This document shows positions 1 to 8,808 of a stretch of DNA of 10,110 nt, in pieces (position 1 is the first letter of the stretch; each line of letters starts with the position of its first letter). The DNA is taken from the IMG/VR virus record IMGVR_UViG_3300010280_000146; one strand, 5' to 3'. The stretch is from a virus. Taxonomy: Duplodnaviria; Heunggongvirae; Uroviricota; Caudoviricetes. The position numbers and the translations under genes are program-made. Below the pieces are notes generated by a model, which had not been told where the DNA came from, did no database searches, and was given only the letters and a program-made list of their open reading frames with translations.

Positions 1-1
1 A

Positions 2-121
2 CATCTGCCGTACGATTTCCTCGGTCGCGTTTCCAACCGCATTATCAATGAAGTGAATGGTATTTCCCGCGTGGTGTATGACATCAGCGGCAAGCCACCA
101 GCGACTATTGAGTGGGAATGA
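2..121 (+). CDS. guaA: GMP synthase, 3' end (partial; 5' part lies upstream of the window)
   Basis: Frame ending at TGA 119-121 translates to [39 protein letters not shown], which I recognise as the conserved C-terminus of enterobacterial GuaA (recalled from memory, not searched). Confidence 0.8.
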
Positions 122-167
122 TTAACAGCTAACTCATAGCAAGTCATTCCTATTCAGATGCTAATTC

Positions 168-249: not shown

Positions 250-285
250 GACGGTATTACCTTAAAGGTATACTCTCATACCGTC
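250..285. promoter_or_regulatory. Inverted repeat GACGGTA...TACCGTC enclosing a TTACC-N5-GGTAT operator-like site (257-271) upstream of int
   Basis: Arms at 250-256 and 279-285 are exact reverse complements; the inner 15-mer TTACCTTAAAGGTAT matches the palindrome found in the other promoter regions at 9 of 10 half-site positions. Confidence 0.35.
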
Positions 286-3108: not shown

Positions 3109-3990
3109 TTACATAGATGTTTCGTTTAATTCTTCCCGACGAACGCTGTAAACGTCGGTGGCTTTTGCCAGCAGTTCGTCATCATCTGAAAGTTTTTGTG
3201 CAATGTATTTGTAAGCCTTATCCAGTTCGGAGACAGTGCTGTAATTCATCGCTGCGCTGGTAAAGGCCATCAGCATTTCTTCTGGATCACGGCTATCCGC
3301 TTTACGCGTTTGCTCATCAGGCTTTTTCACTGGTTTAGCGTTGATCAGACTGTTCATTCCCGCAGCAGTGGTCGTTTGCGGAGTAATGTCTCGCTCAACG
3401 CGCGGTGCCGTTTCCTGTAATTCGTCTGGGGTGTAAACACCGAGAAGTACATCAGGAGCGTGCAGGCGAGCCCATCGTTTCGTGCAAAGATAGGCAAGTT
3501 GCTGGCGCGGATCCTGTTCCCACAATGGAGAGTTACGCACTCCGGCTTGCGCCATACTGATGGTAAGCTCACGGGGTTCTGCTTCTCCTTTAAGAACTGC
3601 TGACACAGTTACCGTCAGATTCGGTGATTTATCTGTTTTGCCGTTAACATTCGACCAGTCACCGCTCCAGCGATAATTCAGGCGTGTCGCTAGCAGGCTG
3701 GAAGAGGATACGACCGCGTTTACCAACTGTGCTTCGTAGCCTAACGTTCCGTTTACCACATGCGTTTTCTGCGCCACGGCGAAAGGGTTCATTCCCCACT
3801 GTGCCGCCTGCATGGTCACCGCCAGGCAATCGGCAGGTTTGCCTTCAAGATGTTTCGGTACAGTCGCTTTGCTTTGTGACATCAACTCCGCGAAACGCAC
3901 CAGTTGATTCATGCCATCGGGGCTGAAGATTGCCGCAGCAGTGCCCACAGTTGCGCCTGGTTGTGATGTGATTGCGATATCATTGCTCAT
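3109..3990 (-). CDS. Bet/RecT-superfamily single-strand annealing protein (lambda Bet-like recombinase)
   Basis: 293 aa; segments MQAAQWGMNPF, NSPLWEQDP...RWARLHAPDVLLGVYTPDE and ERDITP parallel lambda Bet motifs (QYGLNPW, TGPWQSHP...QCARLAFGFAGIYDKDE, ERDITP) as recalled from memory. ATGA overlap with the upstream exonuclease gene. Confidence 0.85.
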   Translation of the reverse strand: MSNDIAITSQPGATVGTAAAIFSPDGMNQLVRFAELMSQSKATVPKHLEGKPADCLAVTMQAAQWGMNPFAVAQKTHVVNGTLGYEAQLVNAVVSSSSLLATRLNYRWSGDWSNVNGKTDKSPNLTVTVSAVLKGEAEPRELTISMAQAGVRNSPLWEQDPRQQLAYLCTKRWARLHAPDVLLGVYTPDELQETAPRVERDITPQTTTAAGMNSLINAKPVKKPDEQTRKADSRDPEEMLMAFTSAAMNYSTVSELDKAYKYIAQKLSDDDELLAKATDVYSVRREELNETSM

Positions 3991-4808
3991 ACGTACATAT
4001 CCTGTTTACGTGCCCAGTCAGGGCGTTTAATAATTTCCACTCCGCCCCATTCATCGTTGATGCGGCATTCGTGGTAGGTATTCAGATCCCGGCGGAACAG
4101 AGCGTGCCCGGCATCGACATCTGGCGCATCCAGCTCGAACACGCGTACCGGATACCGACCACAATCAATGCTTTCGCTCACGGCAAGAAAGAAAAAACCA
4201 TGCGGCTGACCAGTAACCCTCATTGCGCCTTCGCGGTACATTGCGTCCTGCACGTGGTAGCGGAATTCCTCGATGTGGCGTGCAAAACGGTCCATATCCG
4301 CAACCTTTTTCACGTCGACGATCACGTTGTGCTCGTTCAGCCATTTGTCTGGACGAATTCGGCACAACTCACCCGTTTCTTCATCGTTCCAGTACATTGA
4401 TGCTTCGCAGTAACCAGGTGCTTCCAACATCCAGCGTGCCGCCGGATGAGCCATTGCGCTATCACGCATCAGCTCCAGTTTTCGCCACTGCTCGACATCA
4501 AGTACCGCAATACCCATATCCGTCACATCACGAAGAAATGCTTCTTCGTCAGCTTTACCTTGTTTTGTCCGACGATCGAATTTCGGTGAAACGATGAAGC
4601 GTTTGTCGAATTCTCCAGGTTCCAGAAGCAGGCAGTGCAATGCGGTTCCCATATCCAGTGCAGAATTTTTCTCTTCGTCTTCTGGTGCTGCCTGAATCCA
4701 TTTAAGAAGCGCCGGATTCTTGGCAACCATGTCCAGTTGCGACTTACTCACGCCGTCACCGGCGTGGTAGTCTTCGTTGCTGATGTCGAAATAAATTCCC
4801 GGTTTCAT
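3987..4808 (-). CDS. RecE-like PD-(D/E)XK exonuclease (exodeoxyribonuclease VIII-like; partner of the annealing protein)
   Basis: 273 aa; N-terminal GIYFDISNEDYH and the nuclease core RIRPDKW...VIVDVKKV (D...D/E-x-K) plus YHVQDAMY resemble RecE C-terminal-domain-type nucleases; directly upstream of and coupled to the Bet-like gene. Confidence 0.8.
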   Translation of the reverse strand: MKPGIYFDISNEDYHAGDGVSKSQLDMVAKNPALLKWIQAAPEDEEKNSALDMGTALHCLLLEPGEFDKRFIVSPKFDRRTKQGKADEEAFLRDVTDMGIAVLDVEQWRKLELMRDSAMAHPAARWMLEAPGYCEASMYWNDEETGELCRIRPDKWLNEHNVIVDVKKVADMDRFARHIEEFRYHVQDAMYREGAMRVTGQPHGFFFLAVSESIDCGRYPVRVFELDAPDVDAGHALFRRDLNTYHECRINDEWGGVEIIKRPDWARKQDMYV

Positions 4809-5278: not shown

Positions 5279-5293
5279 TTACCGTTGAGGTAA
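5279..5293. promoter_or_regulatory. Operator-like palindrome TTACC GTTGA GGTAA (leftward early promoter region, site 1)
   Basis: Perfect 5-bp inverted half-sites with a 5-bp spacer; overlaps the putative -10 and start-site region of the leftward promoter. Confidence 0.45.
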
Positions 5294-5321
5294 TAATTAT
5301 GCGTATCTGGTTTGATGTCAA
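5293..5321 (-). promoter_or_regulatory. Putative pL-like sigma70 promoter for the leftward recombination operon
   Basis: Minus-strand -35 TTGACA (plus 5316-5321, perfect consensus), 17-bp spacer, -10 AATTAT (plus 5293-5298); flanked by the two palindromic sites. Confidence 0.4.
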
Positions 5322-5340: not shown

Positions 5341-5355
5341 TTACCCGTTAGGTAA
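5341..5355. promoter_or_regulatory. Operator-like palindrome TTACC CGTTA GGTAA (leftward early promoter region, site 2)
   Basis: Perfect inverted half-sites; centre is 62 bp from the centre of site 5279-5293. Confidence 0.45.
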
Positions 5356-5365
5356 TCGAATAGGC

Positions 5366-5390
5366 AATAAAAAAGCCGCCATAAGGCGGC
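5366..5390 (-). terminator. Rho-independent terminator of the repressor-candidate gene
   Basis: On the minus strand: stem GCCGCC / GGCGGC with loop TTAT followed by TTTTTATTG, 23 nt downstream of the stop at 5413-5415. Confidence 0.6.
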
Positions 5391-5412
5391 TTACTTACTG
5401 AAAAATATGATT

Positions 5413-5997
5413 TTATTGTTTGTTTTTTTCGTTCTGGTTGATGACAAATTCAATGTAACTTTCGATCTTTGCCTTCTCTGTTTCAGGTAACAATGCGTAG
5501 CGCGAGCGGTCATAGTTGATAGTTGCAGGGTCATGCGGATGAATCAGTAGTTCATATCCGTGACGCCCGAATGCAGATGCAACATTCTCCAGGGTGGAAA
5601 TGGAAACGCTGACCTCATTGTTTAACAGGCGGCTTATTGTCACCTGGGCGACGCCGGATGCGCGGTGAAGTTTTCCCTGAGTTGAAAGGTCGCGGCTTTC
5701 ACTCATCCAGCGTTCCAGGTTGTGAGCTGCCAGCTGACCAATGTCGCTTGGGCCGACAGGCTGAAAACCTTCCTGAGAAAGCGAGCGATCGATATCAAGC
5801 CAGTTACGGGGTTTATTGGCGGCAGCTTCAATTTTTCGCGCAACCTGGTCGCCGATAACCTTCTTGCCAAGAGCCCAGCGGTTTACCAGATTTGCCTGAG
5901 TTCCAAGTTTTTCTGCCATCCGCGTCTGAACACCATTGAATTCACGGTCGATCAAGTCGTTGAGATTTTGCCTGCGGACGTCCTGGATACTTTTCAT
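5413..5997 (-). CDS. Tandem helix-turn-helix (two XRE-type HTH domains) transcriptional regulator; candidate prophage repressor
   Basis: 194 aa. First HTH around GVQTRMAEKLGTQANLVNRWALGKKVIGDQVARKIEAA, second around LHRASGVAQVTISRLLNNEVSVSISTLENVASAF. No LexA/S24 peptidase motifs seen. Placed like cI, divergent from a Cro-like gene, with its own terminator. Confidence 0.75.
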   Translation of the reverse strand: MKSIQDVRRQNLNDLIDREFNGVQTRMAEKLGTQANLVNRWALGKKVIGDQVARKIEAAANKPRNWLDIDRSLSQEGFQPVGPSDIGQLAAHNLERWMSESRDLSTQGKLHRASGVAQVTISRLLNNEVSVSISTLENVASAFGRHGYELLIHPHDPATINYDRSRYALLPETEKAKIESYIEFVINQNEKNKQ

Positions 5998-6052: not shown

Positions 6053-6067
6053 TTACCCAACAGGTAA
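6053..6067. promoter_or_regulatory. Operator-like palindrome TTACC CAACA GGTAA (divergent promoter region, site 1)
   Basis: Perfect inverted half-sites between the repressor-candidate start (5997) and the Cro-like start (6152). Confidence 0.45.
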
Positions 6068-6069
6068 AT

Positions 6070-6084
6070 GCACCCCATAGGTAA
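6070..6084. promoter_or_regulatory. Degenerate operator-like site GCACC CCATA GGTAA (divergent promoter region, site 2)
   Basis: Right half-site perfect, left half-site 3 of 5; centre 17 bp from site 1. Confidence 0.3.
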
Positions 6085-6090
6085 CTATCC

Positions 6091-6127
6091 TTGATTTTTG
6101 TTACCTTATGGGTGAATATTTATTATC
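6091..6127 (+). promoter_or_regulatory. Putative pR-like promoter for the Cro-like gene (element assignment ambiguous)
   Basis: Candidate -35 TTGATT (6091-6096) or TTGTTA (6099-6104) with -10 TATTAT (6121-6126, 16-bp spacer from the latter); overlaps operator-like site 3. Confidence 0.3.
6101..6115. promoter_or_regulatory. Operator-like site TTACC TTATG GGTGA (divergent promoter region, site 3)
   Basis: Left half-site perfect, right half-site 4 of 5; overlaps the candidate rightward promoter. Confidence 0.35.
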
Positions 6128-6151: not shown

Positions 6152-6382
6152 ATGAGCGATAACGGACATTTCGATTTCAAAAAGCACTGGCTTGCACTTA
6201 CTCCGGATGAGCGTGAAGCCTTCGCACAGGAAGCCGGAACGACGAGTCACTATATCCAGACTCACTTAACAGGTAAGCGCAAAATGCCAGGTAAGGTATT
6301 GATGAATGGGCTTTTTAAAGCCTGTAAAACAAGACAATGGCTGCGCTCAAAAGCGGAACTGGCATACTTCTTCTACTCATGA
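6152..6382 (+). CDS. Cro/YdaS-like small HTH regulator
   Basis: 76 aa; LTPDEREAFAQEAGTTSHYIQTHLTGKRKMPGKVLMNGLFKACK fits Cro/CI-type and YdaS-like HTH proteins. Divergent from the repressor candidate and followed by a terminator. Confidence 0.7.
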   Translation: MSDNGHFDFKKHWLALTPDEREAFAQEAGTTSHYIQTHLTGKRKMPGKVLMNGLFKACKTRQWLRSKAELAYFFYS

Positions 6383-6437: not shown

Positions 6438-6452
6438 GTACCTCAAAGGTAA
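6438..6452. promoter_or_regulatory. Operator-like site GTACC TCAAA GGTAA upstream of the replication operon
   Basis: 9 of 10 half-site positions match TTACC/GGTAA; lies between the cro terminator and the 66-aa gene, followed by a TTGATA -35-like hexamer at 6470-6475. Confidence 0.3.
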
Positions 6453-6748: not shown

Positions 6749-7564
6749 ATGAGCAGACATGCAACAGATTGGGCCTGGGAGACAGATCCAGGTAGCTCGT
6801 CATTAAAGCTCATACTGCTCTCGATGGCTGACAGAGCCGATGAATATAACCTCTGCTACCCCAGCATAGAACGCCTCGTTAAAGACACTTGTCTGAATAA
6901 AAAAACCGTGCAGGCCGGGCTTATATCGCTCATGAAAATGGGGCTTATTTCAGATACCGGAGAGAGAAAGGGAGCGACAAAAAGAGTGCGGGTTTTCTCT
7001 CTTAATATAACCAAAAACGGGAACATTAAAGGCAACCGGGAGGGGGGCAATGAACCCGAAAACGGTAATGTTACCGAAAACGGGAATATACCCAAAAACG
7101 GGATGTTGAATGATCCCAAAAACGGGATGTTGAATGATCCCAAAAACGGGATCCAGAACCAGTCATATAACCGGTCATTTAACCAAGAGAGGGAGAGCAG
7201 GACAAAAAACGGGGATTCTGTGTCTCATGACCCCGGCGCAAACAACGCCGTGATGAATAACTTTGTTCCTCCTGGTGGGCCAGGGCAATTAGGCAAATTT
7301 GTCATGCATGAACAATGGCAGCCATCAGATGACTTTCTTCGGAAAAGCTCATTGCAGGGAATCTACCTGGATAGTCTGCCAACGGCACAGGAACTTGCAG
7401 AGTTCAGAATTTACTGGATGGCTGAGGGTAAGGCATACCATCAGGCACAGTGGGAGCAGAAGCTGGCAAGGCGGCTGCAGATTAGCAGACAGAAGCAATC
7501 AACATTACCTGATAACAACGTTCCGCACTGGAACAGCCCTGAAGCGTGGGAGGATTTCTTGTGA
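6749..7564 (+). CDS. Replication initiator (O-like): N-terminal winged-HTH domain, Asn/Gly-rich repeat linker, C-terminal DnaT-like domain
   Basis: 271 aa. N-terminus MSRHATDWAWE...LKLILLSMADRADE...SIERLVKDTCLNKKTVQAGLISLMKMGLIS (HTH_36-like). C-terminus WQPSDDFLRKSSLQGIYLDSLPTAQELAEFRIYWMAEGKAYHQAQWEQKLARRLQISRQ closely parallels the E. coli DnaT C-terminal region (WQPDADF...[29 protein letters not shown], recalled). RBS GGAG 8 nt upstream. Confidence 0.85.
   Translation: MSRHATDWAWETDPGSSSLKLILLSMADRADEYNLCYPSIERLVKDTCLNKKTVQAGLISLMKMGLISDTGERKGATKRVRVFSLNITKNGNIKGNREGGNEPENGNVTENGNIPKNGMLNDPKNGMLNDPKNGIQNQSYNRSFNQERESRTKNGDSVSHDPGANNAVMNNFVPPGGPGQLGKFVMHEQWQPSDDFLRKSSLQGIYLDSLPTAQELAEFRIYWMAEGKAYHQAQWEQKLARRLQISRQKQSTLPDNNVPHWNSPEAWEDFL
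7011..7150 (+). repeat. Iteron-like direct repeats inside the O-like gene (candidate origin of replication)
   Basis: Six copies of the core C(C)nAAAACGG(G) at 7011, 7055, 7075, 7091, 7115 and 7139, including two exact 24-bp tandem units CCCAAAAACGGGATGTTGAATGAT (7091-7114, 7115-7138); they encode the repeated NGMLNDPK linker. Confidence 0.6.
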
Positions 7565-8383: not shown

Positions 8384-8398
8384 TTACCTTTTGGGTAA
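8384..8398. promoter_or_regulatory. Operator-like palindrome TTACC TTTTG GGTAA downstream of the P-like gene
   Basis: Perfect inverted half-sites in the AT-rich intergenic region 8347-8463. Confidence 0.4.
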
Positions 8399-8445: not shown

Positions 8446-8460
8446 TTACCTCAGGGGTAA
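8446..8460. promoter_or_regulatory. Operator-like palindrome TTACC TCAGG GGTAA abutting the DUF1064 gene start
   Basis: Perfect inverted half-sites ending 3 nt before ATG 8464 and overlapping the likely RBS; centre 62 bp from site 8384-8398. Confidence 0.4.
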
Positions 8461-8463
8461 ATC

Positions 8464-8808
8464 ATGAGAAAACAGATACAGGCTCTTGGTCGACTCAAAA
8501 CAGGCCAGATGAACAAAACAGAATCTGCGTATTGCCAGCACCTTGAGCTGCGTAAACGTGCAGGAGAAATCGTCTGGTATCGATTTGAGGGTATCAAGCT
8601 GCGGTTAGCTGACAACACGTTCTATACGCCCGATTTTGCTGTGATGCTCGCCACCGGCGAGATGGAACTGCACGAAGTGAAAGGTTTCTGGACCGACGAC
8701 GCCAGGGTGAAAACCAAAGTCGCCGCAGATCAGTATCCGTTCCGAATCATCGGGGTAACGGTTAAACCAAAGAAAGCAGGTGGTGGCTGGAACATCGAAG
8801 AGTTCTGA
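8464..8808 (+). CDS. DUF1064-family phage protein (nuclease-like fold, function unknown)
   Basis: 114 aa; NKTESAYCQHLELRKRAGEIVWYRFEGIKLRL...YTPDFAVMLATGEMELHEVKGFWTDDARVKTKVAADQYP fits the DUF1064 pattern as recalled. Confidence 0.65.
   Translation: MRKQIQALGRLKTGQMNKTESAYCQHLELRKRAGEIVWYRFEGIKLRLADNTFYTPDFAVMLATGEMELHEVKGFWTDDARVKTKVAADQYPFRIIGVTVKPKKAGGGWNIEEF

What the first reader, a model, noticed from the sequence alone, without database searches (positions are those of the whole stretch)
5413..5997. Repressor candidate built from two tandem HTH domains, with no LexA-like cleavage domain
The protein in the cI position has two XRE-type HTH domains in one 194-aa chain rather than one HTH plus a dimerisation or S24 peptidase domain. 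A tandem-HTH monomer could read both half-sites of the TTACC-N5-GGTAA palindrome as a pseudo-dimer. Absence of an autocleavage domain implies induction, if any, through an antirepressor or another route.
Basis: partly seen in the sequence, partly recalled or inferred. Interest (0 to 1): 0.55.

Follow-up and report, generated by a model that had tools for sequence, protein, structure and literature searches.

The report
Known phiV10/ε15-type antirepressor-controlled phage repressor
This gene encodes the already characterised lysogeny repressor of phiV10/ε15-type E. coli prophages; its second "HTH" corresponds to the domain described as the dimerisation module in a solved homologue, and relatives carrying the identical repressor encode a LexA-controlled antirepressor, so the finding is ordinary.

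Summary
The ORF (5413-5997, minus strand, 194 aa) is real. It is 100% identical to the repressor of E. coli phages phiV10 and vB_EcoP_ZX5, and overexpressing the ZX5 protein blocks lytic growth. It is a full-length homologue (E = 4e-42) of Salmonella phage SPC32H Rep, solved alone and bound to its antirepressor Ant (PDB 5D4Z, 5D50).

There are two XRE-type helix-turn-helix folds and no S24 peptidase domain, Ala-Gly/Cys-Gly site or cysteine.

- **Pseudo-dimer idea, not supported.** In SPC32H Rep the N-terminal domain binds DNA, the middle HTH-like domain dimerises, and the C-terminal domain tetramerises and binds Ant. The perfectly symmetric operator, the conserved and basic N-terminal domain, and the dissimilar recognition helices all favour paired identical N-terminal domains.
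- **Antirepressor route, supported.** phiV10 and a guaA-integrated E. coli prophage with an identical Rep encode an SPC32H-type Ant behind a consensus LexA box. Ant lies outside this window. Rep and Ant co-occur in 35 of 36 phage records.

The TTACC-N5-GGTAA operators are strongly non-random and keep their spacing across the genus. ε15's RefSeq record already annotates them. Novelty: already known.

The parts
5413..5997 (-). rep: 194-aa lysogeny repressor (stop codon 5413-5415). Identical to phiV10 gp40 and ZX5 ORF21, and homologous to SPC32H Rep.
5782..5997 (-). Rep residues 1-72: N-terminal HTH domain, inferred to bind DNA (net charge +5; invariant N36, R40, W41 in the putative recognition helix).
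   Evidence: domain role from PMC9986798
5728..5781 (-). Rep residues 73-90: poorly conserved linker; residues 74-82 are predicted with low confidence (pLDDT < 50).
5542..5727 (-). Rep residues 91-152: middle domain with a canonical HTH_3 signature. It corresponds to the dimerisation domain (MDD) of SPC32H Rep.
   Evidence: role
5416..5541 (-). Rep residues 153-194: C-terminal domain corresponding to the tetramerisation/Ant-binding domain (CAD, 'TetDloop') of SPC32H Rep. No Pfam match.
   Evidence: role
5373..5392 (-). Terminator-like hairpin just downstream of rep.
   Evidence: annotated as a terminator in phiV10
5341..5355 (.). OL operator, exact palindrome TTACCCGTTAGGTAA, upstream of the -35 of the leftward promoter-like site.
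5279..5293 (.). OL operator, exact palindrome TTACCGTTGAGGTAA, abutting the -10 of the leftward promoter-like site and 62 bp from the other OL site.
5293..5321 (-). PL-like sigma-70 promoter match (TTGACA-17-AATTAT, 10 of 12), bracketed by the two OL sites.
   Evidence: consensus match only
6053..6067 (.). OR operator, exact palindrome TTACCCAACAGGTAA, nearest to rep.
6070..6084 (.). OR operator-like site with 2 mismatches (GCACCCCATAGGTAA), 17 bp from the first OR site. The same 17-bp spacing occurs in ε15 and BUCT711.
6101..6115 (.). OR operator with 1 mismatch (TTACCTTATGGGTGA), overlapping the -35 and spacer of the rightward promoter-like site.
6098..6126 (+). PR-like sigma-70 promoter match (TTGTTA-17-TATTAT) ahead of the Cro-like gene.
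   Evidence: consensus match only
6152..6382 (+). Divergent Cro-like gene (76 aa; phrog_35 'transcriptional repressor').
6438..6452 (.). Operator-like site with 1 mismatch, between the terminator after the Cro-like gene and the next gene. The position is conserved in Tyrion and BUCT711.
8384..8398 (.). Exact operator in the spacer of a promoter-like site downstream of the P-like replication gene.
8446..8460 (.). Exact operator 62 bp further on, immediately before the DUF1064 gene start at 8464. The pair and its 62-bp spacing are conserved in ε15, Tyrion and BUCT711.
257..271 (.). Operator-like site with 1 mismatch, upstream of the integrase gene.

Best explanation
The gene encodes the Rep-type lysogeny repressor of a phiV10-like (genus Uetakevirus, ε15-like) prophage integrated at the 3' end of guaA in E. 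coli.

By homology with SPC32H Rep it has three modules: an N-terminal HTH DNA-binding domain (about residues 1-72), a middle domain (about 91-152) that keeps an XRE/HTH_3 fold but serves as the dimerisation domain, and a C-terminal domain (about 153-194) that builds tetramers and is the docking site for the antirepressor.

Pairs of identical N-terminal domains read the symmetric 15-bp operators TTACC-N5-GGTAA. One tetramer offers two such pairs, which fits operators that come in clusters: 62 bp apart around the leftward promoter, 17 and 31 bp apart at the rep/cro divergent region, and 62 bp apart ahead of the DUF1064 gene.

The protein cannot autocleave. Induction is inferred to work through Ant, a small protein of about 85 aa encoded elsewhere in the prophage behind a LexA box. 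DNA damage removes LexA, Ant is made, Ant binds the C-terminal domains of Rep, breaks the tetramer into dimers and takes Rep off the DNA.

Shown here: identity and homology, domain folds, absence of S24, operator statistics and their conservation, and presence of ant with a LexA box in relatives that carry an identical Rep. Shown in the literature: repressor activity of the identical protein, and the SPC32H structures and oligomeric mechanism. Inferred: that this mechanism transfers at 42% identity, and which promoters are controlled.
For: Identity and function:
- Full-length match to PDB 5D50 chain A 'Repressor' (E = 4e-42, residues 1-190) and to 5D4Z (E = 4e-20, residues 89-190).
- 100% identical to the repressor of phiV10, ZX5 and other E. 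coli Uetakeviruses, and 42% identical to the rep gene of SPC32H and ε15.
- The window is about 97% identical to phiV10 26720-36679.
- Overexpressing the identical ZX5 ORF21 left no free phage and cut endolysin and holin transcripts by 99.99% and 99.97% (PMC9782041).

Domains:
- The AF2 model and Foldseek put 5D50 and 5D4Z first, followed by XRE HTH proteins including SinR.
- Domain roles come from PMC9986798 and PMC9638917.
- No S24 match; no Ala-Gly, Cys-Gly or cysteine.
- The N-terminal domain has net charge +5 and is the most conserved domain (53% identity to ε15 against 35% for the middle domain), with invariant N36, R40 and W41.

Operators:
- 8 sites against 0.2 expected.
- The same half-site and the same spacings occur in ε15, Tyrion and BUCT711.
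- ε15's RefSeq record annotates these sites as repressor-binding.
- They overlap promoter-like hexamers.

Antirepressor:
- phiV10p24 matches 5D50 chain E 'Anti-repressor protein' at E = 3e-46, with TACTGTGTATTTATACAGT upstream.
- E. coli strain E23 has a prophage at guaA with an identical Rep, an Ant that is 85/86 identical, the LexA-box core CTGTATAAATATACAG and an exact Rep operator upstream.
- All 35 phage records with Ant are among the 36 records with full-length Rep.
Against: - The primary SPC32H papers (PMC4983836, PMC3807360) are not held, so the domain roles rest on secondary descriptions and on my recollection of the abstracts.
- Rep here is only about 42% identical to SPC32H Rep (35% in the middle domain), so the oligomeric state and trans-pairing are extrapolated.
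- The middle domain keeps a better HTH_3 signature than the N-terminal domain and an invariant R123 in the helix-3 position, so residual DNA contact is not excluded.
- The AF2 monomer model does not reproduce the beta-strand reported for the C-terminal domain, and pTM is only 0.43.
- ant is not in the 10-kb window, so its presence in this particular prophage is inferred from relatives.
- The ZX5 study attributed anti-repression to a Bro-N protein and did not test the SPC32H-type Ant.
Confidence: 0.85

Rival explanations
1. One reading: one Rep chain binds one palindrome as a pseudo-dimer, with the N-terminal HTH on one TTACC half-site and the second HTH on the other. No oligomerisation is needed.
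For: Two HTH-type folds lie in one chain, joined by an 18-residue linker that is flexible in part. The middle domain has a canonical HTH_3 signature above Pfam's cutoff, and hhalign aligns the two helix-turn-helix units in register, with Q24/Q107 and R40/R123 matched. Parts of each domain resemble the DNA-binding regions of cI-type repressors of Pseudomonas phages (H126-H128).
Against: - The half-sites are exactly symmetric in 5 window sites and in about 20 sites in three other phages, which implies two identical readers.
- The two candidate recognition helices are unrelated in sequence, and the domains show no significant similarity (blastp E = 0.026 on an out-of-register 19-aa stretch; hhalign probability 13%).
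- The solved homologue uses the middle domain for dimerisation and binds DNA as a tetramer; its dimeric form binds DNA only weakly.
- The middle domain is electrically neutral while the N-terminal domain is +5.
- The model ignores the conserved C-terminal domain.
Confidence: 0.04
2. A hybrid model: the N-terminal domains read the palindromes as in SPC32H, but the middle HTH-like domain also contacts DNA, non-specifically or at sequences between the paired operators. This would help wrap or loop the 62-bp inter-operator DNA.
For: The middle domain retains an HTH_3 signature, with near-invariant Q107 and Q118 at the starts of helices 2 and 3 and an invariant R123 among the close homologues aligned here, all at least 52% identical. 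The 62-bp operator spacing is strictly conserved in four phages at two loci, which suggests a fixed protein-DNA geometry.
Against: No secondary source read here assigns DNA binding to the middle domain. Its net charge is 0. Q118 is a proline in ε15 and SPC32H. The conserved residues could equally serve the dimer interface.
Confidence: 0.08
3. The effective antirepressor in E. coli phiV10-like prophages is the Bro-N domain protein (phiV10p23, ZX5 ORF4) rather than the SPC32H-type Ant, or the two act together.
For: Overexpressing ZX5 ORF4 (Bro-N) lowered prophage titre from 10^9 to 10^6 and cut rep transcripts by 75% (PMC9782041). A Bro-N gene lies next to ant in phiV10 and in the E23 prophage.
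Against: The ZX5 data come from overexpression only, with no binding assay. The Bro-N proteins are poorly conserved (39% between ZX5 and phiV10), whereas the small Ant is 60-100% conserved and co-occurs with Rep in 35 of 36 records. The consensus LexA box lies directly upstream of ant. The solved complex is Rep-Ant.
Confidence: 0.1

Closest known systems
Rep of Salmonella phage SPC32H (PDB 5D4Z, 5D50; Kim & Ryu 2013 J Virol; Kim et al. 2016 PNAS) and its orthologue ε15 gp38
   Same: Full-length homology (E = 4e-42, about 42% identity), the same length and three-part layout, the same genomic position, the same TTACC-N5-GGTAA operators at the same spacings, no S24 domain, and a cognate small Ant behind a LexA box in the same phage genus.
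   Different: The sequence has diverged, especially the middle domain (35% identity) and the linker (28%). The host is E. coli, with integration at guaA. Oligomeric state and Ant binding have not been tested for this protein.
phiV10 gp40 / vB_EcoP_ZX5 ORF21 repressor
   Same: 100% identical protein. The GenBank note for phiV10 already says 'two helix-turn-helix motifs'. ZX5 ORF21 was shown to block the lytic cycle when overexpressed.
   Different: None at the protein level. The window is a related prophage, about 97% identical in DNA to phiV10 over this region.
LexA-controlled antirepressor systems of other temperate phages (coliphage 186 Tum; Gifsy and Fels-2 antirepressors)
   Same: The same logic: a non-cleavable repressor is inactivated by a small protein whose gene is repressed by LexA (review PMC7380047).
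   Different: I tested no homology to the repressors or antirepressors of those systems. From my recollection of the Kim & Ryu 2013 abstract, which is not held here, SPC32H Ant was described as structurally distinct from the Sipho- and Myoviridae antirepressors.
SinR (B. subtilis) and Rco of plasmid pLS20: HTH repressors with a C-terminal tetramerisation domain
   Same: An N-terminal XRE HTH plus a C-terminal oligomerisation module, antagonised by a small protein partner (SinI, Rap). SinR is among the Foldseek hits, and the C-terminal domain of SPC32H Rep has been likened to the Rco/p53 tetramerisation fold.
   Different: Those proteins lack the extra middle HTH-like dimerisation domain, and there is no close sequence relationship.
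λ cI / LexA-type S24 autocleaving repressors
   Same: The same role and gene position (between PL and PR, divergent from cro) and multipartite operators.
   Different: No S24 peptidase domain and no Ala-Gly cleavage site, so induction cannot proceed by RecA-stimulated self-cleavage.
MarA/Rob (AraC family): monomers with two HTH motifs
   Same: Two HTH units in one polypeptide.
   Different: Those proteins bind asymmetric sites with two different recognition helices. Here the operators are perfectly symmetric.

Membership tests
SPC32H/ε15-type Rep (Uetakevirus antirepressor-controlled repressor) | Full-length sequence homology to SPC32H Rep | tested here: met
   phmmer against PDB: 5D50_A E = 4e-42 over residues 1-190; 5D4Z E = 4e-20. 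tblastn finds SPC32H rep at 41.8% identity and 98% coverage.
SPC32H/ε15-type Rep (Uetakevirus antirepressor-controlled repressor) | Three-domain layout: N-terminal DNA-binding HTH, middle dimerisation domain, C-terminal tetramerisation/Ant-binding domain | tested here: met
   AF2 shows two helical bundles, a linker and a C-terminal helical segment. Foldseek's top hits are 5D50 and 5D4Z. All three segments align to 5D50_A. The beta-strand of the C-terminal domain is not reproduced in the monomer model.
SPC32H/ε15-type Rep (Uetakevirus antirepressor-controlled repressor) | Cognate small Ant gene with a LexA box in the same phage | tested here: met
   Not present within the window. Present in phiV10 and in E. 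coli E23's guaA prophage, which has an identical Rep. Co-occurrence in 35 of 36 phage records.
SPC32H/ε15-type Rep (Uetakevirus antirepressor-controlled repressor) | Symmetric operators clustered at early promoters | tested here: met
   8 sites against 0.2 expected. The same motif and spacing occur in ε15, where they are annotated as repressor-binding. They overlap promoter-like sites.
SPC32H/ε15-type Rep (Uetakevirus antirepressor-controlled repressor) | Binds DNA as a tetramer; Ant binding dissociates it into dimers | not testable with these tools
   Known for SPC32H only, from secondary descriptions. It needs biochemistry or multimer modelling.
SPC32H/ε15-type Rep (Uetakevirus antirepressor-controlled repressor) | Represses lytic genes in vivo | not testable with these tools
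   Reported for the identical protein, ZX5 ORF21 (PMC9782041).
λ cI / LexA-like S24 autocleaving repressors | C-terminal Peptidase_S24 domain with a Ser/Lys dyad | tested here: not met
   No S24 hit in Pfam at E <= 1, and the whole chain is accounted for by the three domains aligned to 5D50.
λ cI / LexA-like S24 autocleaving repressors | Ala-Gly or Cys-Gly cleavage site in the linker | tested here: not met
   No AG or CG dipeptide, and no cysteine.
Single-chain two-HTH DNA binders (MarA/Rob-like pseudo-dimer reading) | Two HTH units of one chain each read one half of the site; sites are typically asymmetric | tested here: not met
   The operators are perfectly symmetric. The recognition helices are dissimilar. 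In the homologue the second HTH-like domain is described as a dimerisation domain. A direct binding test was not possible.

The most novel reading that the evidence does not exclude
The middle domain carries a better-preserved HTH_3 signature than the true DNA-binding domain. It may not be only a dimerisation module: it could still touch DNA between the strictly 62-bp-spaced operator pairs, so that the Rep tetramer wraps promoter DNA rather than simply bridging two palindromes. Relatedly, Rep operators next to ant, int and late-region promoters would make Rep a genome-wide repressor, with ant under dual LexA and Rep control.
Probability: 0.1. Interest if true: 0.4.

Novelty: already known. Interest (0 to 1): 0.12.

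Why it matters
It adds little for discovery. The protein, its two HTH motifs, its operators, its antirepressor and the structure of a homologue are all already in public records and papers.

Its practical value is for annotation:
- In this family the domain that automated tools flag as 'the HTH' is the dimerisation domain, and the real DNA-binding domain scores below Pfam thresholds.
- The SPC32H-type Ant gene is still labelled 'hypothetical protein' in most E. coli phage records. That includes ZX5, where a different protein (Bro-N) was tested as the antirepressor.

Tried and rejected
- **Primary papers.** I tried to read Kim et al. 2016 (DOI and PMC4983836), Kim & Ryu 2013 (DOI and PMC3807360) and the ε15 genome paper (PMC2698709). 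None is held, so I used secondary descriptions.
- **ant in the window.** tblastn of Ant against the window found nothing. There are no CTGT-N8-ACAG LexA-box cores in the window either.
- **Recent internal duplication.** I looked for this as the origin of the two HTH domains. blastp and hhalign show no significant similarity, only a weak in-register HTH alignment, so I rejected it.
- **S24 autocleavage.** Rejected.
- **tRNA at the attachment site.** None. The prophage sits at the 3' end of guaA instead.
- **Operator divergence between phages.** I tried to use this to tell which domain reads DNA. The half-site is the same in all four phages compared, so the test only shows consistency with the highly conserved N-terminal helix; it does not discriminate.
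- **A promoter for rep itself.** The simple promoter scan found no convincing one.

Full report
**1. What is at the coordinates**

The minus-strand ORF at 5413-5997 encodes 194 aa. It sits in the classical cI position. To its left are a terminator-like hairpin (5373-5392), a promoter-like site and the leftward early genes: two small conserved ORFs, a YqaJ/RecE-like exonuclease, RecT, an AlpA-like regulator, a PerC-like regulator, a methylase and the integrase. To its right, divergently transcribed, are a 76-aa Cro-like gene (6152-6382), a small conserved ORF, a DnaT/O-like initiator and a λ P-like helicase loader.

The window is about 97% identical to phiV10 coordinates 26720-36679. Bases 1-123 are the 3' end of guaA, ending in the published att core ATTGAGTGGGAATGATT at 107-123. 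The window is therefore the left arm of a phiV10-like (genus Uetakevirus, ε15-like) prophage in E. coli.

**2. Checking the observation**

Pfam gives HTH_3 with two matched stretches, the best at residues 106-147 (38.5 bits against a cutoff of 23). It also gives a YdaS-type HTH match at 21-61, and no Peptidase_S24 at E <= 1.

Scanned separately:
- The N-terminal 80 aa score below the curated cutoffs (HTH_3 16 bits, YdaS_toxin 20.5 bits).
- The middle piece scores above them (HTH_3 27 bits, HTH_26 26.4 bits).
- The last 42 aa match nothing.

AlphaFold2 with a 47-sequence alignment (mean pLDDT 79) predicts two 4-5-helix bundles at 4-59 and 83-151. It also predicts a low-confidence linker at 74-82 and a C-terminal segment with helices at 164-168 and 172-193. 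Foldseek against the PDB returns 5D50 and 5D4Z first, then XRE-family HTH proteins such as 3VK0, SinR and DdrO. The chain has no Ala-Gly, no Cys-Gly and no cysteine.

So 'two XRE-type HTH folds and no S24 domain' is correct. 'Nothing but two HTH domains, no dimerisation domain' is not: a conserved third domain exists. phiV10's GenBank note already reads 'two helix-turn-helix motifs (PF01381); similar to putative repressor epsilon15p38'.

**3. What it is**

The protein is 100% identical to the repressor of phiV10, vB_EcoP_ZX5, phiv142-3, PAS61 and the O157 typing phages 9 and 10, among others. It is 75-78% identical to the Enterobacter phage homologues, about 45% to the Klebsiella phage homologues, and about 42% to ε15 and SPC32H rep.

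Against the PDB it matches 5D50 chain A 'Repressor' over its full length (E = 4e-42) and 5D4Z, which covers residues 92-198 of that protein (E = 4e-20). These are the structures of Salmonella phage SPC32H Rep, alone and bound to its antirepressor Ant.

Secondary sources describe Rep as follows:
- It has an N-terminal DNA-binding domain, a middle dimerisation domain (MDD) and a C-terminal domain (CAD or 'TetDloop') that forms tetramers and binds Ant (PMC9986798 section 15).
- It binds DNA as a tetramer, and the dimeric form binds only weakly.
- The N-terminal domains that pair on a palindrome are proposed to come from different dimers.
- Tetrameric Ant binds two Rep dimers and breaks the tetramer (PMC9638917 discussion).

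For the identical E. coli protein (ZX5 ORF21), overexpression left no free phage and reduced endolysin and holin transcripts by 99.99% and 99.97% (PMC9782041).

**4. Which domain reads the operator**

Four observations argue against it.

(a) The operators are perfectly symmetric. There are five exact TTACC-N5-GGTAA sites in the window and about twenty in ε15, Tyrion and BUCT711.

(b) The two candidate recognition helices differ (ANLVNRWAL against QVTISRLL). The two domains have no significant similarity: blastp finds only an out-of-register 19-aa stretch, and hhalign gives 13% probability. The helix-turn-helix units do align in register.

(c) The N-terminal domain is basic (net +5), while the middle domain is neutral and the C-terminal domain is -1.

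(d) The half-site is invariant across phages whose Reps are only 42-45% identical. In parallel, the N-terminal domain is the best conserved part (53% identity to ε15, against 35% for the middle domain and 28% for the linker), and N36, R40 and W41 in its helix 3 are invariant in 47 homologues.

Together with the solved homologue, this favours two identical N-terminal domains per palindrome. It does not strictly exclude an accessory DNA contact by the middle domain, which keeps a canonical HTH_3 signature and an invariant R123.

**5. Operator architecture**

Sites with at most 1 mismatch number 8, against 0.20 expected; 0 of 200 shuffles reached 8. They cluster in three main regions.

- **OL, 5279-5293 and 5341-5355.** The two sites are 62 bp apart and bracket a strong promoter-like site on the minus strand (TTGACA-17-AATTAT, 5321-5293).
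- **OR, 6053-6067 (exact), 6070-6084 (2 mismatches) and 6101-6115 (1 mismatch).** The spacings are 17 and 31 bp. The last site overlaps the -35 and spacer of a rightward promoter-like site at 6098-6126.
- **A pair at 8384-8398 and 8446-8460.** These are again 62 bp apart. The first lies in the spacer of a promoter-like site, and the second abuts the DUF1064 gene start.

Weaker sites lie at 6438-6452 and, upstream of int, at 257-271.

The 62-bp spacings recur in ε15, Tyrion and BUCT711 (63 bp at BUCT711's OL). At OR, the 17-bp spacing recurs in ε15 and BUCT711, ε15 also shows the 30-bp spacing, and Tyrion shows the overall 48-bp span. ε15's RefSeq record annotates four of these sites as 'protein_bind: repressor'. 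Paired sites at fixed spacing are what a tetramer with two DNA-reading heads would use, but that link is inference.

**6. Induction route**

ant is not in the window, which fits its position in phiV10, outside the span that matches the window.

phiV10p24 (85 aa, annotated 'hypothetical protein') matches 5D50 chain E 'Anti-repressor protein' at E = 3e-46. TACTGTGTATTTATACAGT, a consensus LexA box, lies just upstream, and a 1-mismatch Rep operator lies further upstream.

In E. coli strain E23 a prophage at guaA encodes a Rep identical to the window's. Next to its tailspike gene it carries an Ant that is 85/86 identical to phiV10's. The LexA-box core CTGTATAAATATACAG and an exact TTACCTTTCGGGTAA operator lie upstream of that ant.

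Across the phage collection, all 35 records with Ant are among the 36 with full-length Rep. It is also the published mechanism for SPC32H: a LexA-controlled ant and a non-cleaved Rep. I recall this from the Kim & Ryu 2013 abstract, and the review PMC7380047 supports it.

**7. Comparison with known systems, and novelty**

This is a member of the SPC32H/ε15 Rep family. Every defining feature I could test was met. Tetramerisation and Ant binding were not testable here.

It is not a λ cI/LexA-type repressor, because it has no S24 domain and no cleavage site. It works like the other LexA-controlled antirepressor systems (186 Tum, the Gifsy phages) in logic, though I tested no sequence relationship to them. 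It resembles SinR and Rco in combining an HTH with a tetramerisation domain.

Nothing in the finding is new. The protein is already in GenBank with the two-HTH note, an identical copy has been tested functionally, and a homologue has been solved with its antirepressor.

**8. Verdict**

Novelty is 'already known' and interest is low.

The one residual oddity is that the better-preserved HTH signature belongs to the domain described as the dimerisation domain. That misleads automated and manual annotation; the ZX5 paper, for example, assigns DNA binding to the C-terminal HTH.

Noticed in passing
window 8384-8398 and 8446-8460: A third pair of exact Rep operators lies downstream of the P-like replication gene and immediately before the DUF1064 gene. 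It has the same 62-bp spacing as the OL pair. Both the pair and the spacing are conserved in ε15, Tyrion and BUCT711, and one ε15 site is annotated as repressor-binding. This suggests a separately repressed promoter for the nin-like/late region.
   Followed up: partly
L001 (phiV10) 87-119, 3252-3266, 20497-20511, 20877-20891, 24692-24706, 26870-26884: Operator-like TTACC-N5-GGTAA sites occur across phiV10 outside the immunity region. They flank ant, lie upstream of int, lie near the start of the small terminase gene, and lie between oac and the lysis genes. Together with the LexA box, the site upstream of ant suggests dual LexA and Rep control of the antirepressor.
   Followed up: partly
L001 20543-20800 (-); ZX5 MW722083.1 2092-2346 (-): The SPC32H-type Ant homologue is annotated 'hypothetical protein' in phiV10, ZX5 and most E. 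coli, Klebsiella and Enterobacter records. The ZX5 paper tested a Bro-N protein (ORF4) as 'the anti-repressor' and never mentions SPC32H.
   Followed up: partly
Rep against Ant across phage records: Ant is much more conserved than Rep between E. coli and Salmonella phages (84-88% identity against 42%). The TTACC half-site is also shared by all the Reps, which raises the question of how immunity specificity is set and whether Ant acts across prophages.
   Followed up: no
window 1-123: Bases 1 to about 120 are the 3' end of guaA (...PPATIEWE*). The published att core ATTGAGTGGGAATGATT lies at 107-123, so the window starts at attL of a guaA-integrated prophage. 569 of 5,426 complete E. coli genomes match at least 80% of bases 1-1600.
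   Followed up: yes
window 7054-7185: Tandem repeats lie inside the O/DnaT-like replication initiator gene: a 24-bp unit in 2.6 copies at 100% match (7091-7152), plus 18-bp and 12-bp repeats. They encode the PKNGMLND repeats and look like λ-style origin iterons embedded in the initiator gene.
   Followed up: no
window 3109-3990 and 3987-4808 (-): The RecT-like and exonuclease genes are separate, overlapping ORFs here and in the E23 prophage. phiV10's RefSeq record annotates a single fused RecE-RecT CDS (29722-31482).
   Followed up: no
window 5542-5727 against 5782-5997: In Pfam scans the middle (dimerisation) domain passes the HTH_3 cutoff, while the N-terminal DNA-binding domain does not. 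Automated annotation therefore points to the wrong domain as the DNA binder.
   Followed up: yes
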